From positions 28,377-92,376 of the IMG/VR virus record IMGVR_UViG_3300045988_137643: DNA of 64,000 nt. The stretch is one strand, 5' to 3'. Source of the stretch: a virus. Lineage: Duplodnaviria; Heunggongvirae; Uroviricota; Caudoviricetes. Shown here piece by piece: positions 25,699 to 40,221 of the stretch; within the stretch, counting starts at the first letter, position 1; the number at the start of each line of letters is the position of its first letter. The translations under genes were made by a program, and so were the position numbers. The notes beneath the pieces are model-generated. The model saw only the letters and a program-made list of their open reading frames with translations, did no database searches and was not told the origin of the DNA.

Positions 25699-25703
25699 AT
25701 TTA

Positions 25704-25790
25704 GGGGAGTTAGTCCGTAGGGGTAGCGGGGTAGACTGTAAATCTACTGTCATTGCGACTCGGGTGGTTCGACTCCATCACTCCCCACCA
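25704..25790 (+). tRNA. tRNA-Tyr (anticodon GTA), long variable arm
   Basis: Acceptor ggggagt/actcccc, anticodon stem GTAGA/TCTAC with loop cuGUAaa, T-loop TTCGACT, encoded CCA. Confidence 0.7.
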
Positions 25791-25794
25791 AATT

Positions 25795-25870
25795 GCCGGT
25801 TTAGCTCAGTTGGTAGAGCAGTCGCTTTGTAAGCGAATGGCCAGCGGTTCAAGTCCGTTAACCGGCACCA
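25795..25870 (+). tRNA. tRNA-Thr (anticodon TGT)
   Basis: Acceptor gccggtt/aaccggc, D-arm GCTCAGTTGGTAGAGC, anticodon loop ttTGTaa, T-loop TTCAAGT, encoded CCA. Confidence 0.7.
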
Positions 25871-26538
25871 ACATAATATTGAGAACATTGGCGTAACGGG
25901 GTCATATCCCAATCTATGAATAAATGTCGCGTTGCAGCGTGACAACCAGTGTTCTCAACATTGTGGTGAATGCACAGGCTGATGTGCCGCAACTACAGTA
26001 GTGCGCGCTTTGCGGGGCTTGCTACAACCCTGTGTCGGAGTTCAGCACCGACCATCACAATTTGGCTCTCTTGCAACAGCATAACGCTGAAATATGTCCA
26101 ACCTGGTGCGGCCTGTTCACCCGCCGTTAGCTCCACGAAACGGAGCGCACAACAGATAAGAGAACTTCCCATATGGGGCTTGGCTTAAATGCATCGAGTT
26201 CTCTTATCGCTGTGTCACAGACAAATTTCCGACAGCCCTGTTTATCATCGGACGCAACCTAAAAGGTCGAGGCAAAGCCAGGTAATAGCGGAGGGAGTGA
26301 CACAGCACACAACAGGTAAGAGCATTTGTAGAGTTCGACTCTCTACCGTGGGCTTTTTCCCGCGATGCGAGCCATAAATGCTCTTTCCGTTGTGGTGGAT
26401 TCGCAGACTGATGCGATAGCTTTCTTGGATGTTAGGGAAATGCGGCCGCAAATCTTCCCTTTCGCGAGCGGTGATCGTCCGTAGTCCTAATTGGCTGCAC
26501 CGTATGCCGGAGATTCAGTACCGGCCACCACAACGGCC

Positions 26539-26625
26539 GGAGAGTAGGGAGCATGGTGCTCAAGCGGTCTTGAAAACCGTCCCATTGTGCAAACGATGAT
26601 GGTTCGATTCCATTACTCTCCGCCA
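26539..26625 (+). tRNA. tRNA-Ser (anticodon TGA) candidate with atypical D-arm
   Basis: Acceptor ggagagt/actctcc, anticodon loop cuUGAaa, long variable arm, T-loop TTCGATT, CCA; D-loop unusually short so may be degenerate. Confidence 0.5.
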
Positions 26626-26804: not shown

Positions 26805-27701
26805 TTACTGATTATCTAGGTATGCTATTAACTCATTTTTAATGATCAGTGAATATTCTAAAATCTCACCTAGTAAATACTCTGCTTTTTTAAAATGCCA
26901 CCCCATATAGCCTAATTTTTCTGAAGGTTTTTCTAACAACATTATAATATCGCCGTCTTTCTCTTTGGCAATGTATTGTCTTATTTCTATCTCCCCATTA
27001 TTTCTTGCCTTTCCACTTATTGATGATTCATCCAAAACTTTAGTTATAAACTTTTCCGTGTCGGTGAACTTTCCTGCATTATGCACAATTGTATGTCTTA
27101 GCAATTCAATTAGAGTGATCTCTAAACGATAGTTTTTACCCATCTTGTTATTTATTTCTACGTCTCTGAAATTGGGTAATTTTCTTCTAAATACTTTCAG
27201 GATTTTTTTTGGTGCTTTATTATTTCTTTTTATCGCATTGTAGTAGGTTTCCATGTCTCCATTTTGTTCGATCTGAACATTTTTAAATTCACTAGTTGAC
27301 CAAAAATGGTCATGAATACTCACTGTATGGGCATATATTTTCTTAATATAGTCTTCAAACAATTCATATGCTTCGGTTATAACCCATTGATACTGTTTAT
27401 TTTTTAACACCTCACATAATTTTATCTTCTCTGAGAGATCTGTTCTAGTATACCCAATTCCAAATGTTGAACCTGTATATGGATTTGAGCATGTATAGTT
27501 TGCTAACGTTGTCCCGCATGTTATTGGGGAAGTATTATTAGCATCTAGAGTTTGTACGTTTTCAAGTGTATGCTTAAATCGCTTTATGTTGTCTTTCGTT
27601 GTAACATTTATATGACCTAACAAGTCACAACGTAATATTATTTCATTTCTTAAATCAGTGAATATTTTTTCGACAAAAGAACCTGGTGGGTTTTCAATCA
27701 T
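26805..27701 (-). CDS. AT-rich accessory gene: HEPN-motif protein, candidate abortive-infection/RNase effector
   Basis: 298 aa; Rx4H motif (LLRHTIVHN) at about 27078-27110; markedly lower GC than flanking sequence; only minus-strand gene in its neighbourhood. Confidence 0.4.
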   Translation of the reverse strand: MIENPPGSFVEKIFTDLRNEIILRCDLLGHINVTTKDNIKRFKHTLENVQTLDANNTSPITCGTTLANYTCSNPYTGSTFGIGYTRTDLSEKIKLCEVLKNKQYQWVITEAYELFEDYIKKIYAHTVSIHDHFWSTSEFKNVQIEQNGDMETYYNAIKRNNKAPKKILKVFRRKLPNFRDVEINNKMGKNYRLEITLIELLRHTIVHNAGKFTDTEKFITKVLDESSISGKARNNGEIEIRQYIAKEKDGDIIMLLEKPSEKLGYMGWHFKKAEYLLGEILEYSLIIKNELIAYLDNQ

Positions 27702-28333: not shown

Positions 28334-29437
28334 ATGAAAAATAGCTTTGACAGAGCACGCGCTGCGGAGAACACCTCAAAAGAGGCGATTGAGTATCTCG
28401 AAAGAGCATCTCAAATGCAGGCCGTTATGATCTCGCAGGTTAGCATTGATATGAGATTCTCGGACGCATTCATGTTATTCACTCGCTTATCTCTGCTGAT
28501 AACCAGACGTCGGCCAGAGATCGCTGTTCATTGTATTTTGATACATGTTTTGCCGCACATTGCCGATGTAAAAGTAAGTGACATTAATAGGTTCATGGTG
28601 AACCAACTGGTCAACCCACTAATACTGGATGGCAAAATTGTTATGGGCCGCCGCGTTTTCTCTCTGATGAAGCAGTTCCTTAGCTGGTGCGCCTTCCAGG
28701 GGATGATAGACGTGTCACCGTTAAACGATATGTCACTAAACAAAGTTGCCGGTGGCGCAAAGCCCACACCTCGCGAGCGGAAGCTGACCGACGCAGAGGT
28801 ATGGGTGTTCTGGAATATATGGGACTACTTCAATGTGTGCGCTGGTACAAAATGGGCGGCCAGGCTGTGTCTTGTATCAGCAAGACGACCTGACGAAGTA
28901 CTGCGGGCTAAAAAAAGTGAGTTCAATCTTAAGCGTGGGGTTTGGAATCAAGGCAAGAGAAACAAGTCAGCACGTGAGCATTCGCTGCCTTTAAGCACAT
29001 TAATGCGCACATGCATTGAAGAGTTGTTCGAATACGGTAAAGACAGCCAGTGGCTCGTGCCTTCGAATAAAAAAATCGGGAAAGACCTTCCTATGTCTAA
29101 AGTGGCAATAGCCCAGGCATTACGTCGTATTCTGGAACGACCAGAACTGATGGAGCTTGAGCCATTTACACCCCGAGATTTGCGCCGTACTGCGCGTAGT
29201 TACTTCCCAGCATTAGGCATAAGCCAGGAGGTATCACGCAAAATCATGAACCACAGTCTTGAGGGGATAGATCGGGTCTACGACCGGCACGATTATATGG
29301 ACGAGATGCGAGACGCCTTAGAAAGTTTCTCGACGTACATCGCATCAATCGTAGAGCAACCGGATTTAGACGAAATTGACCACAAATTCAAGGGAGATCG
29401 TCTATCAACAGAGCTTATTCGTGTAAATTTTTCATAG
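28334..29437 (+). CDS. Tyrosine recombinase (phage integrase family)
   Basis: 367 aa; C-terminal catalytic-region residues (DLRRTARS, HSL, VYDRHDY). Confidence 0.7.
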   Translation: MKNSFDRARAAENTSKEAIEYLERASQMQAVMISQVSIDMRFSDAFMLFTRLSLLITRRRPEIAVHCILIHVLPHIADVKVSDINRFMVNQLVNPLILDGKIVMGRRVFSLMKQFLSWCAFQGMIDVSPLNDMSLNKVAGGAKPTPRERKLTDAEVWVFWNIWDYFNVCAGTKWAARLCLVSARRPDEVLRAKKSEFNLKRGVWNQGKRNKSAREHSLPLSTLMRTCIEELFEYGKDSQWLVPSNKKIGKDLPMSKVAIAQALRRILERPELMELEPFTPRDLRRTARSYFPALGISQEVSRKIMNHSLEGIDRVYDRHDYMDEMRDALESFSTYIASIVEQPDLDEIDHKFKGDRLSTELIRVNFS

Positions 29438-29818
29438 AGACTTTATGGCCTCAACAACCTTTTGTGATGCGCCTTTCTCTTTACCGAATCGCTCGTTATA
29501 TGCAGCAAGAACCTGTTTTTCGTCCTCGTTAAGAGGAGCGGTGCCTTCTTTGTATAAAAATGCTGCGAGTTCAGGTTGGCGTTCTTCCAGCACCATCATC
29601 ATAAGACGACTTGGCTCAATACCCAGCGCCAGCGCCAGCGGACGAACCTTATCGATAGGCAAAGGAATTTTGCCACTTTTAATTAAAGAAAGGTTGTTGG
29701 CATTTTTATAACCAATAAGTCTGGCTATTTGGGCCTGACTCATAGGTGAGGATTCAATCAGCCCTGCGATAAAAGCAGCATAGCGACTTTCTATAAATTC
29801 AATCTTGTTGTCAGACAT
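29432..29818 (-). CDS. XRE-family HTH repressor (CI-like)
   Basis: HTH SQAQIARLIGYKNANNLSLIKSGK; divergent from downstream + strand genes across an AT-rich 250-bp region. Confidence 0.6.
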   Translation of the reverse strand: MSDNKIEFIESRYAAFIAGLIESSPMSQAQIARLIGYKNANNLSLIKSGKIPLPIDKVRPLALALGIEPSRLMMMVLEERQPELAAFLYKEGTAPLNEDEKQVLAAYNERFGKEKGASQKVVEAIKSL

Positions 29819-29849
29819 TGTTACAACCTTTGCGCGTTTAATTCTCTCT

Positions 29850-29863
29850 GGTAAGTGCTTACC
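29850..29863. promoter_or_regulatory. Candidate operator palindrome GGTAAGtgCTTACC
   Basis: Perfect 14-bp palindrome in the divergent region next to the repressor gene; related to the genome-wide TAAGT..ACTTA motif. Confidence 0.4.
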
Positions 29864-30069
29864 GATATTACATCAAAGGTTAGGGTTGTAAAGCTATTAT
29901 CATTTTTTTCGGCAGGCACTTGTAAGACCAAGCAAAGGTCCATGCATGGAGAAAAACTAGCCCAAAATAGGTAAGAAAATTAACTTGCATCTGATATAGA
30001 TGTATTCAGTATTGATACAAATTTTAGTAGTATTCCTTACCATAGTATAAGTTAGAATGGATTGATTGA

Positions 30070-30282
30070 ATGAAAACCACTATTTCCAGCCTAATCGCTC
30101 TTGAGATCGGACACGTACAGAAATTAGCTGATGAGTGTGTAGCTGACATCCTCACCGATCTACCGAATGAGCAGATTCAGGTTGGTGTGAATGACACAAC
30201 TGGCTTTATATTCGAACTTAACAACAAACGCTTCACGCTTCTCAATACCGGCTCCGGGTCTTTAGCCGTCAGAATCTGTTAA
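30070..30282 (+). CDS. Hypothetical small protein
   Basis: ORF only. Confidence 0.25.
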   Translation: MKTTISSLIALEIGHVQKLADECVADILTDLPNEQIQVGVNDTTGFIFELNNKRFTLLNTGSGSLAVRIC

Positions 30283-30380
30283 CCCCTCTTCTCCCTGCGC
30301 GAATGGCTTAGTTCCCTGTTCGCGCAGTGCTACATTAAACACACTAGTAAATAATTTGTTTTCATAACAAAGGATTAGCC

Positions 30381-32489
30381 ATGTCTAAAAAACGTTCCAT
30401 CAAAGAGGTTCAGGACTTCCGTGACAGTGTAAAACGAGTAGTCGCTCTCCTTTCAGGTAAAAACATCCCTGTTGCAGAACGAGGGGACGACGCTTATGTA
30501 CGCTATAACGATGATGGAGAGCCAATTCTCGTAAACATCCCATCAATCCCGGATAACGCAACACCGGCATTGATGAATGCTGTGCGCGGATTTCTCGATC
30601 ATGAGGTTGCTCACATTTTGTTTACCGATATTCGTGTGTCCAACAAAATGAGAGAAAAAGGACGCGTTCCTTCCTGGTCGCTATGGAATGCCTTAGAAGA
30701 CGTGTTCATCGAGCGAAAAATGGGGCAGGTCTTTAACGGAACAAGACGTAATCTGATGGCAACTCAGCGCCTTATAATCGAAAAAGTCTTTAAACCAAAG
30801 GCTTCAGAGGCTATTGCTTATTGTGGCAAAGATCAGCGCGCGCTTTTTCTAAACTTCTTTCTCTGTCCGGTTGTAAGAGCCTGGGATGGCCAAGCACCGT
30901 TCGTAGATTTCATGGATGAATATTGGCCTGTCATTGAGAAACCAATTTCATTATTAAAAGAACATGGTATCGATGTGGCCGTGCGTAACATGTCTTGCAC
31001 CGAGGATTGTGTAAAGGTGGCTGCGACCATAGCTAAGCTCCTCAAAGACACTGAAAGTGAAAGCAAAGGTAAGGAGTCAGCTCCGGGAAAAACTTCCGAT
31101 CCTTCAGACGCTGACCAGACGGATGCCTCTGGAGAAAACAATGAAGACAACGAAGATCATGAGACACCCTCAGAGATAGATAATCACAAATCTATCAAAT
31201 CAGAATCACATAGTAAGCACAAGCATGATAATAACGACAGTGATGATTCAGATAATTCTGAATCATCAGAAACAATATTCGATGATACAGAAAATGATAA
31301 AGAGGTATCAGATTCTGATGCTTCTGATAACGCGGCGTCAGAATCATTAACCGCTGACCACGAAAAAAGAAAAACGACAGAAGACGGCTCTTCAGATATT
31401 CCAACCCCGTCAAAAATGAGTCTGGAAGAGGCTTTAGAGGAGCTGGATAGCATAGAAGATGAAGTCGGAGGCATGACAGAAGATGCTCTATCCGAAACGA
31501 TTAAAAGCGAGTTAACAGAAAGCTCGAAAAGCGAATACAGGCCATACAATCGCTCATACGACTTCATCGGCTCGATTGATCAGGCAGAAGCCCATATCAA
31601 ACGGCTTATTAAAACATTCTCCGATATTGATTTAGGAGGATATCCAATCAGCCGCTATCGCATCGTTCCTGAAGGCAACCAGCTCTTCGACAAATATATT
31701 GAAAAGCATCTTTCGTCAGGTGTTTCGTCGACGCTGGCAAAAGACCTGGAGCGAGCAATAGCAAGCAGAAACAGAGTTCAGTTTATACCGGGCCAGCGTC
31801 GGGGGCGCATTCATGGTTCTAGTATCTACAGATTAGCAATGAATGATGATCGCGTGTTTCGTAAAAAAGAAGAATCTAAAGCCGTTAACGCCTGTGTTCA
31901 ACAAGTGATTGATTTATCAGGTTCAATGAGTGGCGAAACGATAAAACTAGCTCTTGCAAGTGCATATACCATCGCCGATGCTCTTGATCGAATAAATGTT
32001 CCCAACATTATCACCGGCTTCACTACATTTGGCAGTCATCTGGCAGCGATAGAACTTAAGGCTGTCAAGTATGAGTTCTCTCGCTTTGAATCTTTAATGC
32101 TACCTATCATCAAAAATTGGAATGAAAAGGTAAATTCTCGCGAAGTTCGCTCACGTATGGGGTGCGTAGGCTACACATTCCCACTTCTTAATAACGTGGA
32201 TGGTGAAAGCATAGCCAGCCTTGCATCGTTATTTTCCGGTCGCATGGAGGACAGGAAGATCATGCTTGTTCTGAGCGATGGCGAGCCGCTGGCTGTTGGG
32301 AGAGGTTTTGACGCTCATTTGCGTTCGGTTGCGAAGCAAATTGAAACGCAGACTGACATTGATTTGATGGCAATTGGCATCATGACTGACGCACCGGAGA
32401 GATTTTACGCAAATCATGCCCTGGTAACGAGCGTTGATAGTCTTGGTTCATCTGTAGTTACTGAACTATCTCGTATCATTTTGAAGTGA
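30381..32489 (+). CDS. vWA-domain protein (CobT-like) with acidic low-complexity linker
   Basis: MIDAS motif DLSGSMSGE; long D/E/S-rich region; paired with downstream AAA+ ATPase. Confidence 0.6.
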   Translation: MSKKRSIKEVQDFRDSVKRVVALLSGKNIPVAERGDDAYVRYNDDGEPILVNIPSIPDNATPALMNAVRGFLDHEVAHILFTDIRVSNKMREKGRVPSWSLWNALEDVFIERKMGQVFNGTRRNLMATQRLIIEKVFKPKASEAIAYCGKDQRALFLNFFLCPVVRAWDGQAPFVDFMDEYWPVIEKPISLLKEHGIDVAVRNMSCTEDCVKVAATIAKLLKDTESESKGKESAPGKTSDPSDADQTDASGENNEDNEDHETPSEIDNHKSIKSESHSKHKHDNNDSDDSDNSESSETIFDDTENDKEVSDSDASDNAASESLTADHEKRKTTEDGSSDIPTPSKMSLEEALEELDSIEDEVGGMTEDALSETIKSELTESSKSEYRPYNRSYDFIGSIDQAEAHIKRLIKTFSDIDLGGYPISRYRIVPEGNQLFDKYIEKHLSSGVSSTLAKDLERAIASRNRVQFIPGQRRGRIHGSSIYRLAMNDDRVFRKKEESKAVNACVQQVIDLSGSMSGETIKLALASAYTIADALDRINVPNIITGFTTFGSHLAAIELKAVKYEFSRFESLMLPIIKNWNEKVNSREVRSRMGCVGYTFPLLNNVDGESIASLASLFSGRMEDRKIMLVLSDGEPLAVGRGFDAHLRSVAKQIETQTDIDLMAIGIMTDAPERFYANHALVTSVDSLGSSVVTELSRIILK

Positions 32490-32584
32490 TTAAAACAGCC
32501 TTAACGATAAGTAACTACTTATGATAGTTAATGATATATTTATATAAGAAGTTGAACGCTCATTAGAGAACAAAGGAAAAACGC

Positions 32585-33820
32585 ATGACTACTACTGCAC
32601 TGCAAAATGAAAAAAATCCTTCTGATTACCTTGTTTGCAAGTGGTGCGGAAAATCATTTCACTATTTTAAGTCCCATGTAGCCTATGGTAATTGCGAGGG
32701 CATTCCTGAGTCGGTAAAAGATGCCGATCCTGACACCGTACTGAAAATGTACACAACGCAGTTTCCAGATGAACCAACGCTATCGAAAAAGGCACTTGAT
32801 GCAATTCAAGCTAAACGTGCCGAGCAAAAAAGCGAAATGGCCAAATCTTCTGGTGTGACCAGTAGCCCAGGCTACATAGGCACAGTTGAGTACAAGACAG
32901 ATCTGGTCGCAGCTCACGAACTGCTAGACGTAACGGTGGAAGAACTCGGAACAAAACGTGGGACGCCGCTCATGGTTAGCGTCAACGTCAATACGCCGTT
33001 TCCAGAGTTCGTTCCTGAAGTGAAGAAGGGCTACGTATATGGCGACTTCGAACTGATCAAAGACATTTTCATGATGCTTGAACTTGGCATACCAGGCTAT
33101 TTGTGGGGACATGCAGGAACAGGCAAATCGTCATTGCCTACACAGCTATGTGCTTTGCTCAATCGTCCGTTGATCCGTGCCCAACATACAGCATCAATGG
33201 AAGAAGCTCATGTTACGGGTCAAATTCTGGCGCGTGATGGCTCTACGTATTTCGAGCCAGGCTTGCTTGCGCTCGCAATGAAGCATGGCTGGGTTTACCT
33301 CGCGGATGAATACGACTTTGCGTTTCCACAAATTCTTGGCGTGTATCAGCCAGTGCTGGAAGGTGAAGCGTTGGTCATCAAAGAGGCGACACCAGAATGG
33401 CGTCGCATTACTCCGCATAAACGGTTTGCTTTTATTGGCACTGGCAACACGAACGGATCTGGTGATGAAACCGGCTTGTACCAGGGTACAAACATCCAGA
33501 ACGCCGCGAACTTTTCGCGTTTTGGCATCGTTTCGAATGTGAAATACATGAGCAAAGAGGCAGAGATCAACATGTTGATAAATGCCGGCATTGTGGATGA
33601 GTACGCTGAAAAGATGGTTAAGTTTGCCGGTATCGTTCGCGATGGTTACGAAGAACACAATATCAGCCAACCGATTGGGCCTCGTGAGCTTTTGTTGTCG
33701 GCCAAGATTGGAATGATGCGAGGCGACTTTGTGACAGGTATTGAGCGTTCTTTCATTAACAAACTCCCTTCAGCTTCTGCGCAAGCGGCACGTGAAGTTG
33801 TTCAAAAAATATTTGGTTAA
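32585..33820 (+). CDS. AAA+ ATPase, CobS/MoxR-like
   Basis: Walker A GHAGTGKSSL, Walker B VYLADEYD; N-terminal Cys-rich segment. Confidence 0.65.
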   Translation: MTTTALQNEKNPSDYLVCKWCGKSFHYFKSHVAYGNCEGIPESVKDADPDTVLKMYTTQFPDEPTLSKKALDAIQAKRAEQKSEMAKSSGVTSSPGYIGTVEYKTDLVAAHELLDVTVEELGTKRGTPLMVSVNVNTPFPEFVPEVKKGYVYGDFELIKDIFMMLELGIPGYLWGHAGTGKSSLPTQLCALLNRPLIRAQHTASMEEAHVTGQILARDGSTYFEPGLLALAMKHGWVYLADEYDFAFPQILGVYQPVLEGEALVIKEATPEWRRITPHKRFAFIGTGNTNGSGDETGLYQGTNIQNAANFSRFGIVSNVKYMSKEAEINMLINAGIVDEYAEKMVKFAGIVRDGYEEHNISQPIGPRELLLSAKIGMMRGDFVTGIERSFINKLPSASAQAAREVVQKIFG

Positions 33821-34000
33821 TCGTGCGTAAAGGATGTTTCGGCTCTCTTATCGCTGCTTCTGAAACTGGTAAGGCTTGTCTGGTGTGTCCAGACAAGCCC
33901 GATTGTCACCAATCAGCAAAAGAAGTTGCGATTTCGATGCATGGGAAGTTCGTAGGCTTCCCAAATGACAAAATCAAAAAAACCAGAAAGGTAAAAACAC

Positions 34001-37000
34001 ATGAAGGCACTGATGGTTCGAACTGACTTCTCACTTGGGGAGTCGGCTCTAAAAGCAGAAAACGCGGTGAAGATTGCCAGAGAAGCTGGCTACACCGCTG
34101 TAATTTCAGCAGATAGCATGAATATTGCGAGTGTTATTCCACTACAACGTGCCGCTGGTGACGACATGGCGGTTATTTGTGGTGTGAAACTAAACATCGT
34201 TGATGATCCCACATACGAGCACCGGGCTAAACTTGCTAAAGAATCTAAGGGATGTATGGAATCATTAGAGCGAGGACGTAACTACTCGTTTACCGCTCTA
34301 ATTAAAAATGAGCAAGGATATCGCGACATCTGCGAACTAATGACGGTGGCCAACACACGAGAACAGTTCTACTTTGTACCGCGTCTCTCGCTCGAACAGT
34401 TGGTTTCTACATATGCCAAAGGCAACATCATCCTGCTCACTTCCGACATCGGTAGCGTGTTCCAACGCAACGATTTTGCAAAAATCATAAGCACACTGAT
34501 TACAGCGGGTGGAAAAGACAACTTCTATAGTGTGGTTTATCCGCACCCTACCCCATTCTACGACCAGATTAACGTCCGGGCGATGAAAGTCGCCAGCGCA
34601 CTGAAAATAGAGCCAGTAGCGTTCTATCCCGCTTATTACGAATCGATCGACGATGCAGACATTAAAGACATTGCGCACATGGTTACGAACAACATCAAAA
34701 TCGACCAGCCGCATCGTCTGCGTATCCCCCACCAGCGAGATAACGCCGTCAATGGTCGCCGCCATCTCCTTGAGGCGCTGAAAGCCTTCTCCGTTCGCAT
34801 GGATGTGCCGGTAACAGCTGCAATGGCCTCAACAACGCAGGATACCATTATCGATGCCTGCACATGGCGCTGGCATGAATTGCCACCAGCACTGCCAAAG
34901 ATGGCAGACGACGAGCCTGCAACGCTGATGAAACTGGCCGTTGCTGGGCTGCGTAAACGTCTTACCACAAAAGAGTTTGGCTACACACCACCGGCTTCTG
35001 AGAACAGGATTTATGTTGAACGGCTTAAGTACGAAATGGACACGCTGACTCGCCTGGGATTTTGTGGTTACTTCCTGATGGTACGCGATCTGATGAATCA
35101 CAGCCGTGAAACTGGCATTCCTGTCGGGCCTGGTCGTGGTTCCTCTGCCGGTTCTCTGGTGGCGTGGTGCATAGGCATAACCAACGTCGACCCAATCCGT
35201 CACGGTCTTCTGTTTGAGCGTTTCATCAACCCTGAGCGTCTCGACTTGCCGGATGCGGACTTGGACTTCAGCCAGGCACGTCGCCATGAGGTGATCGAGT
35301 ATCTGAATGAACGCTACGGCGAAGATTACGTTGCAGGCATTCCGAACTTCACCTACCTGGGCGCAGCCTCTGCACTACGTGACACCGCTCGTATTTATGG
35401 TGTGGAGTCCGCAGATATGGCGGTATCAAAAGAACTGAAGAACGTCGAGGATGATAGCCTTCCATTGGAAGAACTGCGCGAACAACTGGCAAGTCTCGAC
35501 AAATACGCAACAAAATATCCTGATGCATTCAATGCAGCCTGCAAGTTACAAAGCCTTATGCGTGGCTTTGGTAGACATGCGGCAGGGATGATCGTAGCAG
35601 GTGTTCCTCTGACAGAACGCACACCGGTTGAGCGCCGTGGTGACGCGCGTTGTATCGCATTTGACAAGCGTTACTGCGAGGCTATGGGCCTAATTAAGCT
35701 GGACGTGCTTGGCCTGGCAACTCTCGATTTGCTCGATAGTGCAAAACGCTACATAAAAGAGAACACAGGTGAAGATATCAATCTTGATGCCATTTCTCTT
35801 GAGGATCGCAAGGTGCTGGATGGTTTTGCTGCTGGGTACACTCAAGGTGTTTTCCAGCTTGAATCAGGCCCAATGCGCAAGCTGCTTAAAGATTTAGGTG
35901 GTGGAATTGAGCCAATGAGCTTTAAAACGGTTGTTGCTACGACTGCGCTCTTCCGGCCGGGGCCAATTCAGTCAGGCATGTTGGATGATTATGTTTCTGT
36001 CGCCAAAGGCTTTATGACGCCGGAATCATTACACCCCGTTCTTGATGAACTTACCGCAGAAACAAATGGCGTGATTCTCTATCAGGAACAGACGATGAAC
36101 GCGACTCGATTGCTTGCTGGCTTCACAATGGCTGAAGCTGACGGTGTTCGTAAAGCGATCGGCAAAAAAGACATGGAAAAAATGAAGAGCATGGGCGAGA
36201 AGTTCATCGTTCAGGCTCAAGCTGGCTGGATAGACGTTGAGCTGGAAGATGGCACTACACAGCGCATTCACCGTGCGGAACATTTTAAATGCGAAGACGG
36301 AACTCTGAAAACTGTCGAAGAGGCACTTGAGTACGGCGCAAAACTACCTATAAACGCAGTACGCGTTACAGCGTCACATCCAGGGCTATCAGAGATGAAA
36401 GCGAAGGAGATCTGGACCGCATTCGAAAAGAATGGTGCCTACCAGTTCAACAAATCACACTCTGTTGCTTACTCCTTAATCAGTTATCAATCTATGTGGT
36501 TGAAAACTCATTATCCCGCAGAGTTTTTCGCTGCTGCTCTCACTATTCTTGGCGAAGATAAACACCAGGGGCTGGTTAAAGATGCGCTGACCTATGGTAT
36601 TCGCGTATTGCCACCAGACGTTAACGTGTCATCTAACCGAATCGAGATCCGCACGCTTGAAGATGGCAGCCAGGTGCTGTATGCGCCCTTCTCTGCTGTG
36701 AAAGGTTGTTCTGAGAATGGCTGCCAGGCCATCATGAGAGCGCGAGAAAAAGTTGGCGGCAAATTCGAGTCACTGGCGCAATTCGAAGAAGCTGTCGAGA
36801 AACGTGCCTGTAATAGTCGAGTGCGCGAATCACTGCAAAAAGTAGGGGCGTTTGCATCCATCGAGCCAGGTAGTCTGCCAGCAACTGATCCAGAGCGTCT
36901 CCGCGACCAAGCTGAATTGATGGGAAACCTTGTCATAGACGCAGTTAAAGCCTCACGTCCGTTTGAGATGAACCCCAAACGTTCGGCTGAGATTAACGTG

Positions 37001-37519
37001 CTCATGACACGGATGGCGGCTGAAATGGGATTAGGTGATGAACTAATCCGCCCTAGCATTGGCATTAAGCCGAAAATCATGATCATTCTGGACAATGCAA
37101 ACGGCAATGATGCTCGAACCGGTTACTTTATGGAGAACGGATACGACGATTTTAAGGCCAAGCTGTTGACGGCTGGGGATTTGCGCATGGGCGATCTCTA
37201 TGTCACAGGCGTTTGCAAAAAGGTGAAAGACAAAGAAAAGGACTACACCAAAGACGAGATCGGCCAGTTCACCGACTTTATGCGTGAAGAGATCAATCTG
37301 GTGCGCCCGACCTATGTGCTGACGTGTGGCAGCCGGGCAACGGCATTGTTTAACAACAAAAACAAGCCATCCGATTTGGTCGGCAGGAAGGAGTACCTTC
37401 CAGACCTTGACGTTACTGTCTTTTACGGGTTTAACCCCAACATTCTTTACTTCAGACCTGAAGAGGGAGAACGACTAGAAGCGATATTAGCCGACGTAGC
37501 AGAAACCATTAAGACGTGA
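34001..37519 (+). CDS. dnaE: DNA polymerase III alpha-subunit family (DnaE-like)
   Basis: 1172 aa; PHP-like N-terminus; pol III alpha-like core blocks (GPGRGSSAGSLVAWCIGIT, LDVLGLATLD); AAAACACATG start context. Confidence 0.85.
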   Translation: MKALMVRTDFSLGESALKAENAVKIAREAGYTAVISADSMNIASVIPLQRAAGDDMAVICGVKLNIVDDPTYEHRAKLAKESKGCMESLERGRNYSFTALIKNEQGYRDICELMTVANTREQFYFVPRLSLEQLVSTYAKGNIILLTSDIGSVFQRNDFAKIISTLITAGGKDNFYSVVYPHPTPFYDQINVRAMKVASALKIEPVAFYPAYYESIDDADIKDIAHMVTNNIKIDQPHRLRIPHQRDNAVNGRRHLLEALKAFSVRMDVPVTAAMASTTQDTIIDACTWRWHELPPALPKMADDEPATLMKLAVAGLRKRLTTKEFGYTPPASENRIYVERLKYEMDTLTRLGFCGYFLMVRDLMNHSRETGIPVGPGRGSSAGSLVAWCIGITNVDPIRHGLLFERFINPERLDLPDADLDFSQARRHEVIEYLNERYGEDYVAGIPNFTYLGAASALRDTARIYGVESADMAVSKELKNVEDDSLPLEELREQLASLDKYATKYPDAFNAACKLQSLMRGFGRHAAGMIVAGVPLTERTPVERRGDARCIAFDKRYCEAMGLIKLDVLGLATLDLLDSAKRYIKENTGEDINLDAISLEDRKVLDGFAAGYTQGVFQLESGPMRKLLKDLGGGIEPMSFKTVVATTALFRPGPIQSGMLDDYVSVAKGFMTPESLHPVLDELTAETNGVILYQEQTMNATRLLAGFTMAEADGVRKAIGKKDMEKMKSMGEKFIVQAQAGWIDVELEDGTTQRIHRAEHFKCEDGTLKTVEEALEYGAKLPINAVRVTASHPGLSEMKAKEIWTAFEKNGAYQFNKSHSVAYSLISYQSMWLKTHYPAEFFAAALTILGEDKHQGLVKDALTYGIRVLPPDVNVSSNRIEIRTLEDGSQVLYAPFSAVKGCSENGCQAIMRAREKVGGKFESLAQFEEAVEKRACNSRVRESLQKVGAFASIEPGSLPATDPERLRDQAELMGNLVIDAVKASRPFEMNPKRSAEINVLMTRMAAEMGLGDELIRPSIGIKPKIMIILDNANGNDARTGYFMENGYDDFKAKLLTAGDLRMGDLYVTGVCKKVKDKEKDYTKDEIGQFTDFMREEINLVRPTYVLTCGSRATALFNNKNKPSDLVGRKEYLPDLDVTVFYGFNPNILYFRPEEGERLEAILADVAETIKT

Positions 37520-37525
37520 TCCCAT

Positions 37526-37555
37526 AAACATGGCCTCTATGGCCATGTTTTCCCT
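37526..37555 (+). terminator. Hairpin terminator candidate (weak U-tract)
   Basis: AAACATGGCC-tctat-GGCCATGTTT then tccctt. Confidence 0.35.
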
Positions 37556-37644
37556 TATCCCCTCATATCCCCTATCCTCGAACTCCTTGCCTTATCATCA
37601 CAATGATATAATCAATATAAAATGATAAGTAAAAAGGAAAGCAC

Positions 37645-38076
37645 ATGATCACCGATATTTACGAGAAAATAATGTCTGATCTCGAGTTTGACCGAGACAA
37701 TCTGGAGGAAGTCTGGCGTAGACAACCCCGCCTTTTAATGGAGTATGGCTCAAAACTCGCTCATGCAGAAAGAAGTGTCGCAGAGGCAAAACTTAACCTT
37801 GAAGCTGTTGAAGCAAAGCTATACGACACAGAGCGTAAGAACTTGAGTATGAACGGCATTAAGTTCAACGAGTCTGTACTGGACGCTAAGGTTAAAACAA
37901 ACCCACAGTATCTGTCTAAACGGCAGAAGTTGGATGAAGCACGGCACATCGCAGACATATACAAACATGCTGTCGCCGCCTTTTCGCATCGCCGAGACAT
38001 GATCGTTCAGGCGTCGAAGATGGCCATCGTTGAGTTAGATCGATTAGGCTCTGAACGCTTTATTACTCCCCGTTGA
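37645..38076 (+). CDS. UvsY-like recombination mediator candidate
   Basis: 143 aa helical protein; loose resemblance to T4 UvsY as recalled; placed with SSB, FEN and UvsX-like genes. Confidence 0.3.
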   Translation: MITDIYEKIMSDLEFDRDNLEEVWRRQPRLLMEYGSKLAHAERSVAEAKLNLEAVEAKLYDTERKNLSMNGIKFNESVLDAKVKTNPQYLSKRQKLDEARHIADIYKHAVAAFSHRRDMIVQASKMAIVELDRLGSERFITPR

Positions 38077-38193
38077 TTTTTGATAGATAATAAGTAAGTA
38101 CTGATCTATCATTTAACAGCTCGAAAGAGCCACGAATGAACGAAAGCCCAACGCGCATAGCGCCATCGGCCAAATCACAACAAGGAGAAACAC

Positions 38194-39216
38194 ATGTCTA
38201 AGACATTACTTGATTTGCTTAACAAAACTCGTGAAGACATTGCCGCCAAACGTGGCAAAAACACTGATTTGACCCGCTTAAAAGACGGCATCAACTATAT
38301 CCGCATCTTCCCTAATAAAGACGACCCGAATGGTAAGTTCTTCCAGACTTTTGGTATGCACTACATTAAGTATCAGAACGAGGAAGGTAAAGAAGCAACC
38401 AATGCTTATATTTGTGAGCAACATACTCACGGTCGCGCTTGTCAGCTATGCGAAATGGTGATGGAAGGTCGCGCTCGTCACAAGGGTAACAAAGCAATGG
38501 AAGAGCGCATCGGTCAAATGCGTGCAACCCCTCGCTACCTGGTAAACGGCATTCTTTCAACTCGTGAGGATTTCTCCGATGCAGAGAAATGTCAGTTAAT
38601 CGAACTGCCTTCCACTGTGTTCGATGATATCTGCAAAGCAATCACCGAAGACATCGCTGACGATATCGGCAATCCATTAAGCAAAGAGGAAGGTTACGCA
38701 TTTCAAATTAAGCGCACAGGCTCTGGTCGCGATACAGAATATGACGTTTCACCAAAACGTAAAGTCTTCAAAGGTGATATCGAAGATAAATTCTGGAACA
38801 ACCAACATGACCTGATTGCTTATGTGAATCAGGCCGATGAAACTCGCCTTCTTGCGACAGTTCGCACTATGGGTCGTCTGATTGGCATCGCTGCACCAAC
38901 TGCCACTGCATCGGCACCAGCAATTTCCTCAACAGCGAAAACATCGGCCTCTGCACTGCCTGGATTTGGCTCGATCACTGGTCATACGGAAGGAGCGACG
39001 GCTGTAGCAACCGCCCACACTCCAGCTTCTGAACCAACCAGTCTGGTTGATGAAGAAGTCCTGCGAGCAATGGAATCTGAATTTAAATCAGAAACAAGTT
39101 CTGCTGCCGCATCAGCCAAAGAGTCTGAAGCAGACGCAACGACATCTGTAGCAGCCGCATCTGCGGCGGAAGATGAAGGTATTGATGACCTGCTGAAAGA
39201 ACTGGAGTCTCTGTAA
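38194..39216 (+). CDS. ssDNA-binding protein, T4 gp32-like
   Basis: IRIFPNKDD and YICEQHTHGRACQLC resemble the gp32 Zn-binding region as recalled; acidic C-terminal tail EDEGIDDLLKELESL. Confidence 0.5.
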   Translation: MSKTLLDLLNKTREDIAAKRGKNTDLTRLKDGINYIRIFPNKDDPNGKFFQTFGMHYIKYQNEEGKEATNAYICEQHTHGRACQLCEMVMEGRARHKGNKAMEERIGQMRATPRYLVNGILSTREDFSDAEKCQLIELPSTVFDDICKAITEDIADDIGNPLSKEEGYAFQIKRTGSGRDTEYDVSPKRKVFKGDIEDKFWNNQHDLIAYVNQADETRLLATVRTMGRLIGIAAPTATASAPAISSTAKTSASALPGFGSITGHTEGATAVATAHTPASEPTSLVDEEVLRAMESEFKSETSSAAASAKESEADATTSVAAASAAEDEGIDDLLKELESL

Positions 39217-39232
39217 TCCCATTACGTGACCA

Positions 39233-39261
39233 GTAAGGCGTCTACGGACGCCTTACTTTTT
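39233..39261 (+). terminator. Rho-independent terminator
   Basis: GTAAGGCGTC-tacg-GACGCCTTAC then TTTT; overlaps the track's GTG start at 39226. Confidence 0.6.
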
Positions 39262-39276
39262 GGAAGGAATGTACCG

Positions 39277-40221
39277 GTGAATTATCTCTTCGTAGATGGC
39301 AATAGCCTGGGTTATTACCACCAACAATCTGACAAATTGCACAACGGCGAAATGGAAGTACAGGCTGCTTTCGGCTTTGTTAAGAACGTCCGTCGTTATG
39401 CCTCCATCCTCCATGCCCGACCTATGATTCTTTGGGATGGATTTAGTGACAAGCGTCGCGACTTTTACCCGGACTACAAAGCAAATCGCGACGACGATCC
39501 TGATATGAAAAAGATGAAGGAAGGCTTTGCTGTCCAGAAGCCATACATCCTCAAAATGATGACCGCGCTTGGTGTTAACCAAATCATTGCAAAAGATGCA
39601 GAAGCGGATGATCTGGCCGGGCTGCTGGTATCCCGCATGGCACCGCAGCCAACCGTTGAACACATCTATCTGTTAACAGGCGATAGCGACTGGCTTCAGT
39701 TAGTTCGCGAAAACGTAAGCTGGGTAAGCCTGCGTGAAGACGCCAAAAACAAGCAGGTTAATTTTGAGCAATTTGCGGAGCTGACAGGATTCGCCACGCC
39801 TCGCGCATTTTTGGAAGCAAAAGCATTACAAGGCGATAACTCGGACAACATTAGCGGTGTTGGTGGCATTGGTGCTGGCGGCGCGAAAGAGCTGCTGCAT
39901 GAATGGGGAAGTGTCGCAACGATGGTACGCGGCATCAACGACGGCTCAATCGTGGTTAATAAAGGGCGTCATAAGACCGCCTTCAACAAACTAGCGAAGA
40001 ATGCCTTCAACGAGAAAACAGGCTGTCGAATGCTCGAAGCGTTCAAGAGAAACATCACGCTAATGAACCTGATTGAGACGAAGTTTCCGCCTACCGAAAT
40101 CGAAACAATCAAAGGCAATCGTGACGTGAAAGCATTCGAGCAACTGTGCTACGAGCTGAATTTCCGTTCGTTCCTTGAAGACCTTGAAGTGTTTGTTCTT
40201 CCATTCGAAAGGTATTGCTAA
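39277..40221 (+). CDS. 5'-3' exonuclease / flap endonuclease (FEN, RNase H-like)
   Basis: N-terminal LFVDGNSLGYY and acidic GDSDWLQL blocks; GTG 39277 with GGAAGG RBS, downstream of the terminator. Confidence 0.6.
   Translation: MNYLFVDGNSLGYYHQQSDKLHNGEMEVQAAFGFVKNVRRYASILHARPMILWDGFSDKRRDFYPDYKANRDDDPDMKKMKEGFAVQKPYILKMMTALGVNQIIAKDAEADDLAGLLVSRMAPQPTVEHIYLLTGDSDWLQLVRENVSWVSLREDAKNKQVNFEQFAELTGFATPRAFLEAKALQGDNSDNISGVGGIGAGGAKELLHEWGSVATMVRGINDGSIVVNKGRHKTAFNKLAKNAFNEKTGCRMLEAFKRNITLMNLIETKFPPTEIETIKGNRDVKAFEQLCYELNFRSFLEDLEVFVLPFERYC

What the first reader, a model, noticed from the sequence alone, without database searches (positions are those of the whole stretch)
30381..34026. vWA (CobT-like) and AAA+ (CobS/MoxR-like) pair plus a small Cys-rich ORF directly upstream of dnaE
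A MoxR-type ATPase with a MIDAS-containing vWA partner is a chaperone/chelatase-like machine, here embedded in the replication block with an extremely acidic linker in the vWA protein. Its role in a phage-plasmid is not explained by cobalamin synthesis. Possibilities include replisome or capsid assembly and host-takeover or anti-defense functions.
Basis: partly seen in the sequence, partly recalled or inferred. Interest (0 to 1): 0.45.

Follow-up and report, generated by a model that had tools for sequence, protein, structure and literature searches.

The report
Phage CobT/CobS-like motor beside DnaE
The two "cobalamin" genes upstream of the phage DNA polymerase are a virus-specific version of an ATP-driven motor-and-adaptor pair that keeps a protease-type zinc site and carries a DNA-binding-type zinc finger, so they probably serve phage replication or transcription rather than vitamin B12 synthesis.

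Summary
At exactly the stated coordinates, an SSU5-like E. coli phage-plasmid encodes a CobT-like vWA protein (702 aa), a CobS-like AAA+ ATPase (411 aa) and a 67-aa Cys4 ORF that overlaps dnaE.

The pair is homologous to cobaltochelatase CobS/CobT. It scores far below NCBI's equivalog cut-offs (87 vs 558 bits; 65 vs 759 bits). No CobN is annotated in the first 100 kb of the 98%-identical phage Cyrano.

Three points go beyond the existing annotation:
1. **Zinc-protease motif.** The adaptor's N-domain keeps an HExxH...ED..IE zincin motif. It is present in 148 of 150 cluster representatives and in the cyanophage and ICP2 homologues. Brucella CobT has S-M-x-x-R at that position.
2. **Zinc finger on the motor.** In this phage clade the motor carries an N-terminal Ros/MucR-type zinc finger that cellular CobS lacks.
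3. **Conserved gene order.** The order CobT-like, CobS-like, (sigma factor, Cys4 protein), DnaE, UvsY-like, gp32, exonuclease holds in about 30 viral contigs down to 35% identity. The 67-aa ORF is a truncated remnant of the ~200-aa Cys4 protein.

My best reading is a DNA-tethered AAA+ remodeller, possibly also a protease, in the replication operon. The client protein is unknown and the function is inferred, not shown. I rate it a new variant of a known kind.

The parts
30381..32489 (+). CobT-like adaptor protein (702 aa): zincin-like N-domain, acidic linker, shaft-like segment, vWA/MIDAS domain
   Evidence: Pfam CobT 1e-27 and CobT_C 2.3e-81. PDB Brucella CobT 9uka_G 1.6e-16. TIGR01651 scores 65 bits against a cut-off of 759. 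phrog_1576 4e-299.
30381..31052 (+). N-domain (aa 1-224), M48-like zincin fold
30600..30614 (+). HEVAH (H74-E75-x-x-H78), HExxH zincin motif
   Evidence: Invariant in 34 diverse homologues. Present in 148 of 150 50%-identity cluster representatives. Replaced by S-M-x-x-R in Brucella CobT.
30687..30713 (+). N103-x-x-E106-D107-x-x-x-E111 on the next helix; candidate third zinc ligand
   Evidence: E106, D107 and E111 are invariant. The motif E[DE]xx[IVLM]E lies 26-31 residues after HExxH in 144 of 150 representatives.
31053..31505 (+). acidic, serine-rich linker (aa 225-375)
   Evidence: 32% D+E, net charge -35. Its length varies among relatives, whose proteins run 684-790 aa. The equivalent Brucella linker is disordered.
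31776..31886 (+). shaft-like segment (aa 466-502) preceding the vWA domain
   Evidence: Aligns with the part of Brucella CobT that holds the shaft Q373-R413. The consensus RVxxxPGQRRGRIH...DDRVFR is conserved among phage homologues.
31887..32489 (+). vWA domain with MIDAS (D511, S513, S515, N605, D633)
   Evidence: CobT_C covers 492-701. DxSGSM, NVDGE and SDG motifs are conserved in all loci. 115 of 119 full-length representatives have DxSGSM.
32585..33820 (+). CobS-like AAA+ ATPase (411 aa)
   Evidence: AAA_5 1.7e-15. CobS 9ujv 3.8e-26, aa 142-411 aligned to Brucella 39-315. TIGR01650 scores 87 bits against a cut-off of 558. phrog_249 2.8e-106.
32618..32794 (+). N-terminal Ros/MucR-type zinc-finger region (aa 12-70; C18, C21, H26, H31, C37)
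   Evidence: Clade profile A4 has Ros87 (2jsp) as top PDB hit, E 3.7e-4. 18 of 23 members hit Pfam ROS_MUCR, best 1e-5. The window's own copy is divergent, with a roughly 12-aa insertion, and does not hit on its own.
33008..33820 (+). AAA+ module: Walker A G175-S182, Walker B D241-E242, sensor-1 N288, Arg finger R312, sensor-2 R367
   Evidence: Residue-by-residue alignment to Brucella CobS, using the motif assignments of the preprint. Conserved in 36 viral loci.
33823..34026 (+). 67-aa Cys4 ORF (C5-x13-C19-x2-C22-x5-C28), translationally coupled to both neighbours
   Evidence: phrog_6337 3e-45. dN/dS 0.10-0.22. jackhmmer links it to the N-terminus of a ~180-230-aa protein found at the same position in distant relatives. 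Resemblance to WhiB is weak.
34001..37519 (+). DnaE-type DNA polymerase III alpha; downstream partner in the conserved module
   Evidence: Pfam DNA_pol3_alpha 9e-74, finger domain, HHH_6 and PHP. It follows the pair in about 32 loci.
37645..40221 (+). UvsY-like mediator, gp32-type SSB and 5'-3' exonuclease; rest of the conserved module
   Evidence: Pfam gp32 6e-65 and 5_3_exonuc_N 1e-24. phrog_231 (UvsY-like) 1e-4. Conserved order.

Best explanation
This is a virus-lineage version of the CobS-CobT motor-adaptor machine. In this host it is not a cobalt chelatase.

**Shown by sequence.**
- The 411-aa protein has every catalytic element of a CobS-type AAA+ ATPase.
- The 702-aa protein has the CobT layout: N-domain, disordered acidic linker, shaft-like segment and vWA domain with a complete MIDAS.

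**Inferred from the Brucella CobST structures.** The ATPase forms a hexameric ring. The adaptor docks on it and inserts its shaft into the pore. ATP turnover is passed through the vWA/MIDAS face to a bound client protein.

**Differences from the cellular enzyme.**
- The adaptor's M48-like N-domain keeps an intact HExxH plus a downstream Glu, a protease-type zinc site that cellular CobT has lost.
- The motor carries an N-terminal Ros/MucR-type zinc finger, a DNA-binding type of domain.
- The genes open the conserved operon that continues with DnaE, a UvsY-like mediator, gp32 SSB and a 5'-3' exonuclease.

**Proposed function (inferred).** The ring is held on DNA by its zinc fingers. It remodels, and perhaps cleaves, a DNA-associated protein of the host or the phage, so that replication or transcription of the phage genome can proceed. 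The client is unknown.

**The small ORF.** It is the retained Cys4 metal-binding head of a larger protein which, in relatives, sits with a phage sigma factor between the ATPase and DnaE.
For: **Homology and motifs.** establish the homology. All AAA+ and MIDAS residues are conserved across 36 viral loci.

**Not an equivalog of CobS/CobT.** TIGR01650 gives 87 bits against a cut-off of 558. TIGR01651 gives 65 bits against 759.

**No chelatase context.** No CobN or other cob gene is annotated in the first 100 kb of Cyrano. Its ribonucleotide reductase is the NrdAB type, which is B12-independent by general knowledge. E. coli needs about 30 heterologous genes, including cobN, for de novo B12 synthesis.

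**Zincin motif.**
- H74, E75, H78, E106, D107 and E111 are invariant in 34 diverse sequences.
- HExxH is present in 148 of 150 cluster representatives, drawn from 7,867 clusters with E up to 0.001.
- It is also present in the T4-like cyanophage P-SSM7 'peptidase' and in podophage ICP2.
- Brucella CobT has S-M-x-x-R at that position.
- The AF2 model (pLDDT 91) places the two motifs on consecutive helices.

**Zinc finger.** The clade profile's top PDB hit is Ros87, E 3.7e-4. 18 of 23 members hit PF05443. It is present in 32 of 36 loci.

**A second DNA/RNAP-type fusion.** Split forms of the N-domain protein end in a sigma-70 region-4 HTH.

**Synteny.** The pair sits with replication genes in three polymerase contexts:
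- DnaE phages.
- PolA podophage ICP2.
- T4-like cyanophage, next to gp45/gp44.

**Position in the element.** The operon lies just downstream of the integrase and a divergently transcribed HTH repressor-like gene.
Against: - No experiment exists. Protease activity, zinc binding, DNA binding and hexamer formation are all inferred.
- The window's own zinc finger is divergent. It has a roughly 12-aa insertion and no His at the position of the last Ros ligand, it does not hit ROS_MUCR alone, and it could not be modelled (pLDDT 45).
- A few homologues lack HExxH: BUCTxx99, L035, and 2 of the 150 representatives.
- The cyanophage and ICP2 ATPases have no recognisable DNA-binding N-domain. DNA tethering is therefore not universal for viral CobS.
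- Conserved gene order within one phage lineage may reflect shared ancestry and shared expression timing rather than a direct functional link.
- The window's ATPase ends where Brucella residue 315 aligns. It therefore lacks the C-terminal helix that docks CobT_N in Brucella, so the assembly may differ.
Confidence: 0.4

Rival explanations
1. Auxiliary metabolic gene. Viral CobS/CobT join a host CobN to raise cobalt insertion and vitamin B12 supply during infection. This is the usual literature reading.
For: The pair is truly homologous to cobaltochelatase subunits. The hypothesis is stated in PMC8651126 and repeated in phage genome papers. MIDAS and shaft-like elements, which face CobN and the ring in Brucella, are kept.
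Against: - The aerobic pathway and CobN are absent from E. coli by general knowledge. Consistent with that, about 30 genes including cobN had to be added to make B12.
- Salmonella uses the anaerobic, CobN-free route.
- No cob gene or B12-dependent enzyme is annotated in the element.
- Scores are 6- to 12-fold below the equivalog cut-offs.
- The conserved HExxH and the added zinc finger have no role in chelation.
- More than 1,000 phage-plasmids of enterobacteria and Acinetobacter carry the gene.
Confidence: 0.08
2. Metal-cofactor insertion or enzyme-reactivation chaperone, as with NorQ/NorD, CbbQ/CbbO or CoxD/CoxE. The client would be a phage or host enzyme of nucleotide or DNA metabolism, such as ribonucleotide reductase or the polymerase, with no DNA tethering and no proteolysis.
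For: The nearest solved relatives after CobS are midasin, CbbQ and NorQ. The motor-adaptor-effector logic is shared by these systems. The element encodes metal-dependent enzymes, NrdAB and ThyX, and a DnaE whose PHP site looks degenerate.
Against: It does not explain why HExxH is kept in 148 of 150 lineages when the chelatase adaptor lost it. It also does not explain the Ros/MucR finger or the sigma region-4 fusions. No specific client is indicated by gene neighbourhood.
Confidence: 0.2
3. Transcription take-over module. The pair acts on RNA polymerase or sigma or anti-sigma factors, together with the neighbouring phage sigma factor and Cys4 protein, to switch the host polymerase to phage middle or late genes.
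For: - In distant relatives a Sigma70_r2 protein and the ~200-aa Cys4 protein lie between the ATPase and DnaE.
- About 9% of the best N-domain representatives are split forms ending in a sigma region-4-like HTH.
- The Cys4 motif C-x13-C-x2-C-x5-C resembles WhiB-like proteins. By general knowledge these bind sigma region 4. The top three PDB hits are WhiB proteins.
Against: The WhiB resemblance is below significance: E 0.35-0.5, and Pfam Whib in 2 of 17 members. This window has lost the sigma gene and keeps only a 67-aa stub, yet the pair is intact. Cyanophage and ICP2 contexts show no sigma gene next to the pair.
Confidence: 0.15
4. Anti-defence or general host-shut-off protease that degrades a host immunity or housekeeping protein and has nothing to do with DNA.
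For: The likely early position right after the repressor-like switch region and an intact zincin motif would suit a counter-defence effector.
Against: PADLOC gave no real hit. The AcrIIA26 similarity seen with one profile (E 0.007) fell to 0.15 with a deeper profile. Anti-defence genes are usually variable, whereas this pair is core across very distant phages.
Confidence: 0.1

Closest known systems
Aerobic cobaltochelatase CobS-CobT of Brucella melitensis (PDB 9ujv, 9uka; bioRxiv 10.64898/2026.07.21.739949)
   Same: Both have an AAA+ ring protein with Walker A/B, sensor-1, Arg finger and sensor-2. Both adaptors have an M48-like N-domain, an acidic disordered linker, a shaft-like segment and a vWA/MIDAS domain. 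The gene order is adjacent and the two-protein logic is the same.
   Different: - There is no CobN partner.
- Scores are far below the equivalog cut-offs.
- The adaptor keeps HExxH where Brucella has S-M-x-x-R.
- The motor has about 100 extra N-terminal residues with a zinc finger, and its alignment ends at Brucella residue 315, before the C-terminal helix that docks CobT_N.
Viral cobST cluster: cyanophage CobS plus 'peptidase', Vibrio phage ICP2, haloarchaeal tailed viruses (PMC8651126)
   Same: The same two-gene cluster. The P-SSM7 'peptidase' and the ICP2 CobT have HExxH, ED..IE, an acidic linker and a MIDAS vWA domain. Both clusters lie next to replication genes.
   Different: The ATPases of those phages have no recognisable Ros/MucR finger. 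Their polymerases are PolB or PolA types rather than DnaE. The published interpretation is CobN hijacking.
MoxR-type AAA+/vWA pairs: NorQ-NorD, CbbQ-CbbO, RavA-ViaA
   Same: A hexameric AAA_5-type motor with one vWA/MIDAS adaptor that couples ATP hydrolysis to remodelling of a client protein.
   Different: Those adaptors are not known to have a zincin N-domain, and those motors are not known to have a DNA-binding finger. This rests on my own knowledge and was not tested here. Their clients (cNOR, Rubisco) are absent from this element.
Ros/MucR prokaryotic zinc-finger regulators (PF05443; Ros87, PDB 2jsp)
   Same: C-x2-C-x9-H-L-x3-H followed by T-x-E-x-Y. This is the top PDB hit, and the Pfam family matches for most clade members.
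   Different: Here it is an N-terminal module of an AAA+ ATPase rather than a stand-alone regulator. Some members lack the second Cys. The window's copy has an insertion, and no His at the position of the last Ros ligand.
M48/M56 zinc metallopeptidases (Ste24, ZMPSTE24, BlaR1)
McrBC, and SPRTN/Wss1 with Cdc48/p97 (functional analogies only, from my own knowledge)
   Same: McrB is an AAA_5-type ring with an N-terminal DNA-binding domain and a partner inserted in the pore. SPRTN/Wss1 are DNA-dependent HExxH proteases that work with an AAA+ unfoldase at replication forks.
   Different: No homology beyond the AAA+ fold was shown. The Wss1 Foldseek hit was not significant. There is no nuclease domain.

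Membership tests
Cobaltochelatase subunit CobS (TIGR01650 equivalog) | Whole-protein score at or above the curated cut-off (558.55 bits) | tested here: not met
   87.2 bits.
Cobaltochelatase subunit CobS (TIGR01650 equivalog) | AAA+ catalytic residues (Walker A/B, sensor-1, Arg finger, sensor-2) | tested here: met
   G175-S182, D241-E242, N288, R312 and R367 align to Brucella G71-S78, D141-E142, N186, R210 and R271.
Cobaltochelatase subunit CobS (TIGR01650 equivalog) | Works with a CobN encoded in the same genome or host | tested here: not met
   No CobN or other cob gene is annotated in the first 100 kb of the 108-kb phage Cyrano, which is 98% identical over the finding. Absence from the E. 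coli chromosome rests on established knowledge, and was not searched here.
Cobaltochelatase subunit CobS (TIGR01650 equivalog) | Single-module architecture of about 330 aa | tested here: not met
   The protein is 411 aa. Residues 142-411 align to Brucella 39-315, and the extra N-terminal region carries a zinc finger.
Cobaltochelatase subunit CobT (TIGR01651 equivalog) | Whole-protein score at or above the curated cut-off (759.05 bits) | tested here: not met
   65.2 bits.
Cobaltochelatase subunit CobT (TIGR01651 equivalog) | CobT N-domain, acidic linker and CobT_C vWA with MIDAS | tested here: met
   PF06213 1e-27 and PF11775 2.3e-81. Linker composition. MIDAS residues D511, S513, S515, N605 and D633.
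Cobaltochelatase subunit CobT (TIGR01651 equivalog) | N-domain is a peptidase-like fold without the HExxH site, as in Brucella CobT | tested here: not met
   The window has H74-E75-V-A-H78. Brucella has S-M-A-L-R in the aligned positions.
MoxR-type AAA+ / vWA motor-adaptor pair | AAA_5-type ATPase gene adjacent to a gene for a vWA protein with a complete MIDAS | tested here: met
MoxR-type AAA+ / vWA motor-adaptor pair | Hexameric ring with the adaptor engaged in the pore | not testable with these tools
   Inferred from the Brucella structures. Only single-chain prediction was available.
Ros/MucR zinc finger (PF05443) | Profile-level match to the family | tested here: inconclusive
   Met for the clade: 18 of 23 members, best 1e-5, and Ros87 as top PDB hit at E 3.7e-4. 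The window's own copy does not match alone. It is placed in the family by alignment.
Ros/MucR zinc finger (PF05443) | C-x2-C-x9-H-x3/4-H zinc ligands | tested here: inconclusive
   The window has C18, C21 and H31 at the right spacing. There is no His at the position of the last Ros ligand, where a roughly 12-aa insertion carrying C37 begins. The AF2 model is unusable.
Ros/MucR zinc finger (PF05443) | Binds DNA | not testable with these tools
   Needs EMSA or ChIP.
Zincin (M48-like) metallopeptidase | HExxH plus a downstream Glu ligand | tested here: met
   H74, E75, H78, E106 and E111 are invariant. 148 of 150 representatives have HExxH and 144 of 150 have the downstream motif. The two motifs lie on consecutive helices in the model.
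Zincin (M48-like) metallopeptidase | Zincin fold | tested here: inconclusive
Zincin (M48-like) metallopeptidase | Zinc binding and peptidase activity | not testable with these tools
   Needs biochemistry.
WhiB-like Fe-S proteins (for the 67-aa ORF) | C-xn-C-x2-C-x5-C motif and a profile match | tested here: inconclusive
   The four Cys are invariant with spacing 13/2/5. The top three PDB hits are WhiB proteins, but at E 0.35-0.5. Pfam Whib matches 2 of 17 members, best 0.0095.
SSU5-like phage-plasmid | Near-identical DNA and synteny with known members | tested here: met
   98% identity to PhiR41_1 and Cyrano, 74% to SSU5 with the same gene order. 456 plasmid records match.

The most novel reading that the evidence does not exclude
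The widespread viral 'cobS/cobT' genes are not vitamin B12 genes. They encode a new kind of phage machine: an AAA+ ring tethered to DNA by zinc fingers, whose vWA adaptor carries an active zinc protease. The machine would strip or cut proteins bound to DNA (host nucleoid or silencing proteins, stalled complexes or transcription factors) to clear the template for the phage replisome. These genes are core in T4-like cyanophages and are present in more than 1,000 phage-plasmids, among them plasmids of Yersinia pestis and Salmonella. On this reading, cellular CobT would be a derived form that has lost the protease site.
Probability: 0.25. Interest if true: 0.8.

Novelty: new variant of a known kind. 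Interest (0 to 1): 0.55.

Why it matters
Viral cobS/cobT are routinely counted as auxiliary metabolic genes for cobalamin in marine, gut and wastewater viromes. One genome paper states that the function of phage cobS remains uncertain, and some annotations confuse them with the unrelated Salmonella CobS/CobT.

If the pair is a replication- or transcription-linked remodeller or protease, three things follow:
- Many virome 'B12 metabolism' inferences would be wrong.
- A core gene pair of cyanophages and of clinically common phage-plasmids would gain a testable role.
- The cellular cobalt chelatase adaptor could be placed in evolutionary context, as related to a protease-type ancestor.

The motif and domain findings give precise point mutants to test.

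Tried and rejected
1. **Zinc finger model.** AF2 on the window's zinc-finger region with a 3-sequence alignment gave pLDDT 45, which is unusable. No fold search was run on it.
2. **Foldseek of the N-domain model against the PDB.** No hit at E up to 0.001. The CobT entries appear to post-date that copy.
3. **AcrIIA26 similarity.** E 0.007 with profile A3, but 0.15 with the deeper profile A6. Treated as chance.
4. **PADLOC.** Only a 16-bit DrmE hit across the low-complexity linker. Rejected.
5. **The idea that the cyanophage 'DNA binding protein' between the 'peptidase' and cobS is a detached MucR finger.** It is a DenV-type pyrimidine-dimer glycosylase.
6. **A search for a DNA-binding domain at the N-terminus of cyanophage, ICP2 and related CobS proteins.** Nothing found.
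7. **Staphylococcus and Listeria phage AAA_5 hits.** In Staphylococcus phage A5W the neighbours are PcfJ-like and DUF7192 proteins, with no vWA partner. It is probably a different system. The Listeria context was not examined.
8. **Promoter and terminator scan of 29400-38200.** No more matches than in shuffled sequence, so operon boundaries remain inferred.
9. **tblastn of the vWA domain against plasmids, to fetch a bona fide cobT.** It returned only phage-plasmids. The Brucella N-domain was recovered from the PDB instead.
10. **The third large protein search, using the short zinc-finger profile.** It found only 2 proteins because of the word index. No deep alignment of the ATPase could therefore be handed to structure prediction.

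Full report
**1. What is there**

The window belongs to an SSU5-like phage-plasmid of E. coli.
- Region 30381-34026 is 97.5-97.9% identical to Escherichia phages PhiR41_1, Cyrano and CMS-2020a, and 74% identical to Salmonella phage SSU5.
- It matches 456 plasmid records.
- The vWA domain alone is found by tblastn in 1,016 plasmids, mostly 100-115 kb. They come from Klebsiella, Escherichia, Acinetobacter, Enterobacter, Yersinia, Salmonella and others.

- **30381-32489.** Encodes 702 aa, with Pfam CobT (1e-27, residues 9-294) and CobT_C vWA (2.3e-81, residues 492-701).
- **32585-33820.** Encodes 411 aa, with AAA_5 (1.7e-15).
- **33823-34026.** Encodes a 67-aa protein with four Cys. It starts 3 nt after the ATPase stop codon and overlaps dnaE (34001-37519) by 26 nt.

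Downstream follow a UvsY-like protein, a gp32-type SSB and a 5'-3' exonuclease. Upstream lie an integrase, a divergently transcribed HTH repressor-like gene and a 70-aa ORF. The genes are under purifying selection: dN/dS against SSU5 is 0.04 for the ATPase, and 0.10-0.22 for the small ORF against six relatives.

**2. Relation to cobaltochelatase**

Both large proteins are homologous to the motor and adaptor of the aerobic cobalt chelatase.
- The best solved relatives are Brucella CobS (9ujv, 3.8e-26, residues 142-411 aligned to 39-315) and Brucella CobT (9uka_G, 1.6e-16, residues 440-697 aligned to 347-616).
- Residue assignments come from the 2026 preprint on these structures.
- The window's ATPase has Walker A G175-S182, Walker B D241-E242, sensor-1 N288, Arg finger R312 and sensor-2 R367.
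- The adaptor has MIDAS residues D511, S513, S515, N605 and D633. It also has a conserved segment (466-502) where Brucella CobT has the shaft that enters the ring pore.
- These elements are conserved in 36 viral loci.
- The acidic linker (residues 225-375, net charge -35) is ordinary for this family. Brucella CobT has a disordered acidic linker of about 90 residues.

Membership as chelatase subunits fails on tested features.
- NCBIfam equivalog scores are 87 against a cut-off of 558 for CobS, and 65 against 759 for CobT.
- The annotation of the first 100 kb of the 108-kb phage Cyrano has no CobN and no other cobalamin gene.
- Its ribonucleotide reductase is NrdAB and its thymidylate synthase is ThyX. 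By general knowledge neither needs B12.
- De novo B12 synthesis in E. coli had to be engineered with about 30 heterologous genes, including cobN. Salmonella uses the anaerobic, CobN-free route.
- The published hypothesis that viral CobST hijacks host CobN (PMC8651126) therefore cannot work in this host.

**3. The adaptor keeps a protease-type zinc site**

The N-domain contains H74-E75-V-A-H78. About 28 residues later it contains N103-x-x-E106-D107-x-x-x-E111.
- *Conservation in diverse homologues.* In an alignment of 34 diverse homologues, H74, E75, H78, E106, D107 and E111 are invariant.
- *Size of the family.* A full HMMER search of 1.84 billion cluster representatives found 7,867 clusters with E up to 0.001, and 616 with E up to 1e-30.
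- *Conservation in the best 150 representatives.* 148 have HExxH, and 144 have E[DE]xx[IVLM]E 26-31 residues downstream. Of 119 full-length ones, 115 have DxSGSM.
- *Other phage lineages.* The same motifs, acidic linker and MIDAS occur in the 'peptidase' of the T4-like cyanophage P-SSM7 (GHEVGH...NVLEDARIER). ICP2 CobT has HECYH. This explains the phrog_459 'peptidase' hit and the cyanophage annotation that PMC8651126 called a mistake.
- *Cellular CobT.* I recovered the Brucella N-domain sequence from the PDB. Profile alignment places RGLGDSMALRQARHN opposite the window's RGFLDHEVAHILFTD. H, E and H are therefore S, M and R in Brucella.
- *Homology of the domains.* It is supported by Pfam and by a profile search whose top PDB hit is Brucella CobT, 9e-6.
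- *Structure.* An AF2 model of the window's N-domain is confident (pLDDT 91.4). It has one helix, a three-stranded sheet and a helical bundle, with the two motifs on consecutive helices. This matches the preprint's description of CobT_N as M48C-peptidase-like.

Shown: deep conservation of a zincin-type motif that the Brucella chelatase adaptor lacks. Inferred: zinc binding and catalysis.

**4. The motor carries a Ros/MucR-type zinc finger**

Brucella CobS is 328 aa, and the window's protein has about 100 extra N-terminal residues.
- In 32 of 36 viral loci this extension contains the pattern I-x-C-x2-C-G-x3-H-x-I-x2-H-L-x3-H-P-x2-T-x-E-x-Y-x3-Y-P-x-A-P-x-L-S.
- A profile of 23 such segments has Ros87 (2jsp) as its top PDB hit, E 3.7e-4. 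Cys and His positions are in register.
- 18 of the 23 segments individually hit Pfam ROS_MUCR, best 1e-5.
- A subgroup has lost the second Cys.
- The window's subgroup (C18, C21, H26, H31, C37) has a roughly 12-residue insertion, and no His at the position of the last Ros ligand. It does not hit the family on its own, and the attempted structure prediction failed.
- Ros/MucR domains bind DNA. That rests on established knowledge of the family and was not tested here.
- Cyanophage and ICP2 ATPases show no such domain.

**5. Context**

Gene order:
- In about 30 IMG/VR contigs with ATPase identity down to 35%, and in Stenotrophomonas phage BUCTxx99 and Rhizobium phage RHph_N2_6, the order is conserved. 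It runs CobT-like, CobS-like, 0.2-2 kb of variable genes, DnaE, UvsY-like, gp32 and exonuclease.
- In podophage ICP2 the pair precedes primase, helicase and a family A polymerase.
- In P-SSM7 it sits beside denV and the clamp and clamp-loader genes gp45 and gp44.

The variable segment and the small ORF:
- In distant relatives the variable segment holds a sigma-70-family protein (Sigma70_r2) and a conserved protein of about 180-230 aa. That protein has an N-terminal Cys4 motif and a C-terminal helical domain.
- The window's 67-aa ORF is homologous to the Cys4 head only. It is a truncated but selected remnant.
- Its C-x13-C-x2-C-x5-C pattern resembles WhiB-like proteins. The top three PDB hits are WhiB proteins, but the E-values are 0.35-0.5. 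This is a lead only.

Split forms of the adaptor:
- About 9% of the best N-domain representatives are split forms. In these the N-domain and linker end in a sigma-70 region-4-like HTH, and the vWA domain is a separate ORF.

**6. Interpretation**

The system has acquired modules of nucleic-acid-binding or RNA-polymerase-binding type twice. It keeps a protease-type site, lacks the chelatase effector, and travels with replisome genes in three phage lineages.

The reading I favour (confidence about 0.4) is an AAA+ motor-adaptor machine that works on a DNA-associated protein client and possibly cleaves it, in the replication operon.

Rivals:
- An enzyme-maturation chaperone in the manner of NorQD or CbbQO (0.2).
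- A transcription take-over device linked to sigma factors (0.15).
- An anti-defence protease (0.1).
- The conventional B12 auxiliary-gene reading (0.08).

Conserved synteny inside one lineage is weak evidence on its own. No experiment exists, and the papers I read treat the function as speculative.

**7. Verdict**

The gene pair itself is known and widely annotated. I found no mention in the searched literature of the following:
- the near-universal HExxH site in viral CobT-like proteins, set against its absence from Brucella CobT;
- the Ros/MucR finger on the ATPase in this clade;
- the sigma region-4 fusions;
- the origin of the small ORF.

I rate it a new variant of a known kind, with interest 0.55.

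Noticed in passing
window 30295-30327: A stable 12-bp hairpin (CUGCGCGAA...UUCGCGCAG) lies between the 70-aa ORF and the CobT-like gene. It has no U-tract. Folding z-score is -2.56, and 1 of 200 shuffles folds as well. It could be a regulatory or processing site.
   Followed up: partly
window 25624-26625: Four tRNA genes (Asn-GTT, Tyr-GTA, Thr-TGT, Ser-TGA) lie upstream of the switch region. Cyrano is annotated with three tRNAs at the corresponding place.
   Followed up: no
window 26805-27701 (- strand): A 298-aa ORF on the opposite strand sits in a low-GC (0.41) stretch with negative GC skew. It has no Pfam match. It is a possible accessory or defence-type cargo gene.
   Followed up: partly
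window 34001-34060: The DnaE N-terminus (MKALMVRTDFSLGES) lacks the His-x-His that normally opens the PHP metal site, judged by eye. A separate epsilon-like exonuclease is annotated elsewhere in Cyrano.
   Followed up: no
OV696614.1 (Cyrano) CYRAN_47 and CYRAN_48, equivalent to window 30381-33820: Public annotation calls the pair 'dimethylbenzimidazole phosphoribosyltransferase' and 'cobalamin synthetase'. Those are the unrelated Salmonella-nomenclature CobT and CobS. The same mix-up appears in the text of PMC11288001.
   Followed up: yes
P0154, P0163, P0164, P0161, P0151, P0243-P0251 and others; L021:7199-9897, L019:2014-4553: A recurrent split architecture: zincin-like N-domain, acidic linker and a C-terminal sigma-70 region-4-like HTH, with the vWA domain as a separate downstream ORF.
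   Followed up: partly
L002:10213-10920, L003:10209-10844, L017:11624-12403, L032:4045-4686: In distant relatives a phage sigma-70-family gene (Sigma70_r2) lies directly after the CobS-like gene. It is absent from the window and from SSU5.
   Followed up: partly
L007, L011, L014, L015, L024, L031, L035 (dnaE regions): In several related viral contigs DnaE matches two separate ORFs, with a gap in some of them. This suggests an intein, a homing-endonuclease insertion or a split polymerase. L017 has a GIY-YIG/NUMOD3 homing-endonuclease gene next to the CobS-like gene.
   Followed up: no
window 33820 (ATPase C-terminus) compared with Brucella CobS residues 316-328: The phage ATPase ends where Brucella residue 315 aligns. 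It therefore lacks the last helix, whose hydrophobic patch docks CobT_N in Brucella. The motor-adaptor docking may differ.
   Followed up: no
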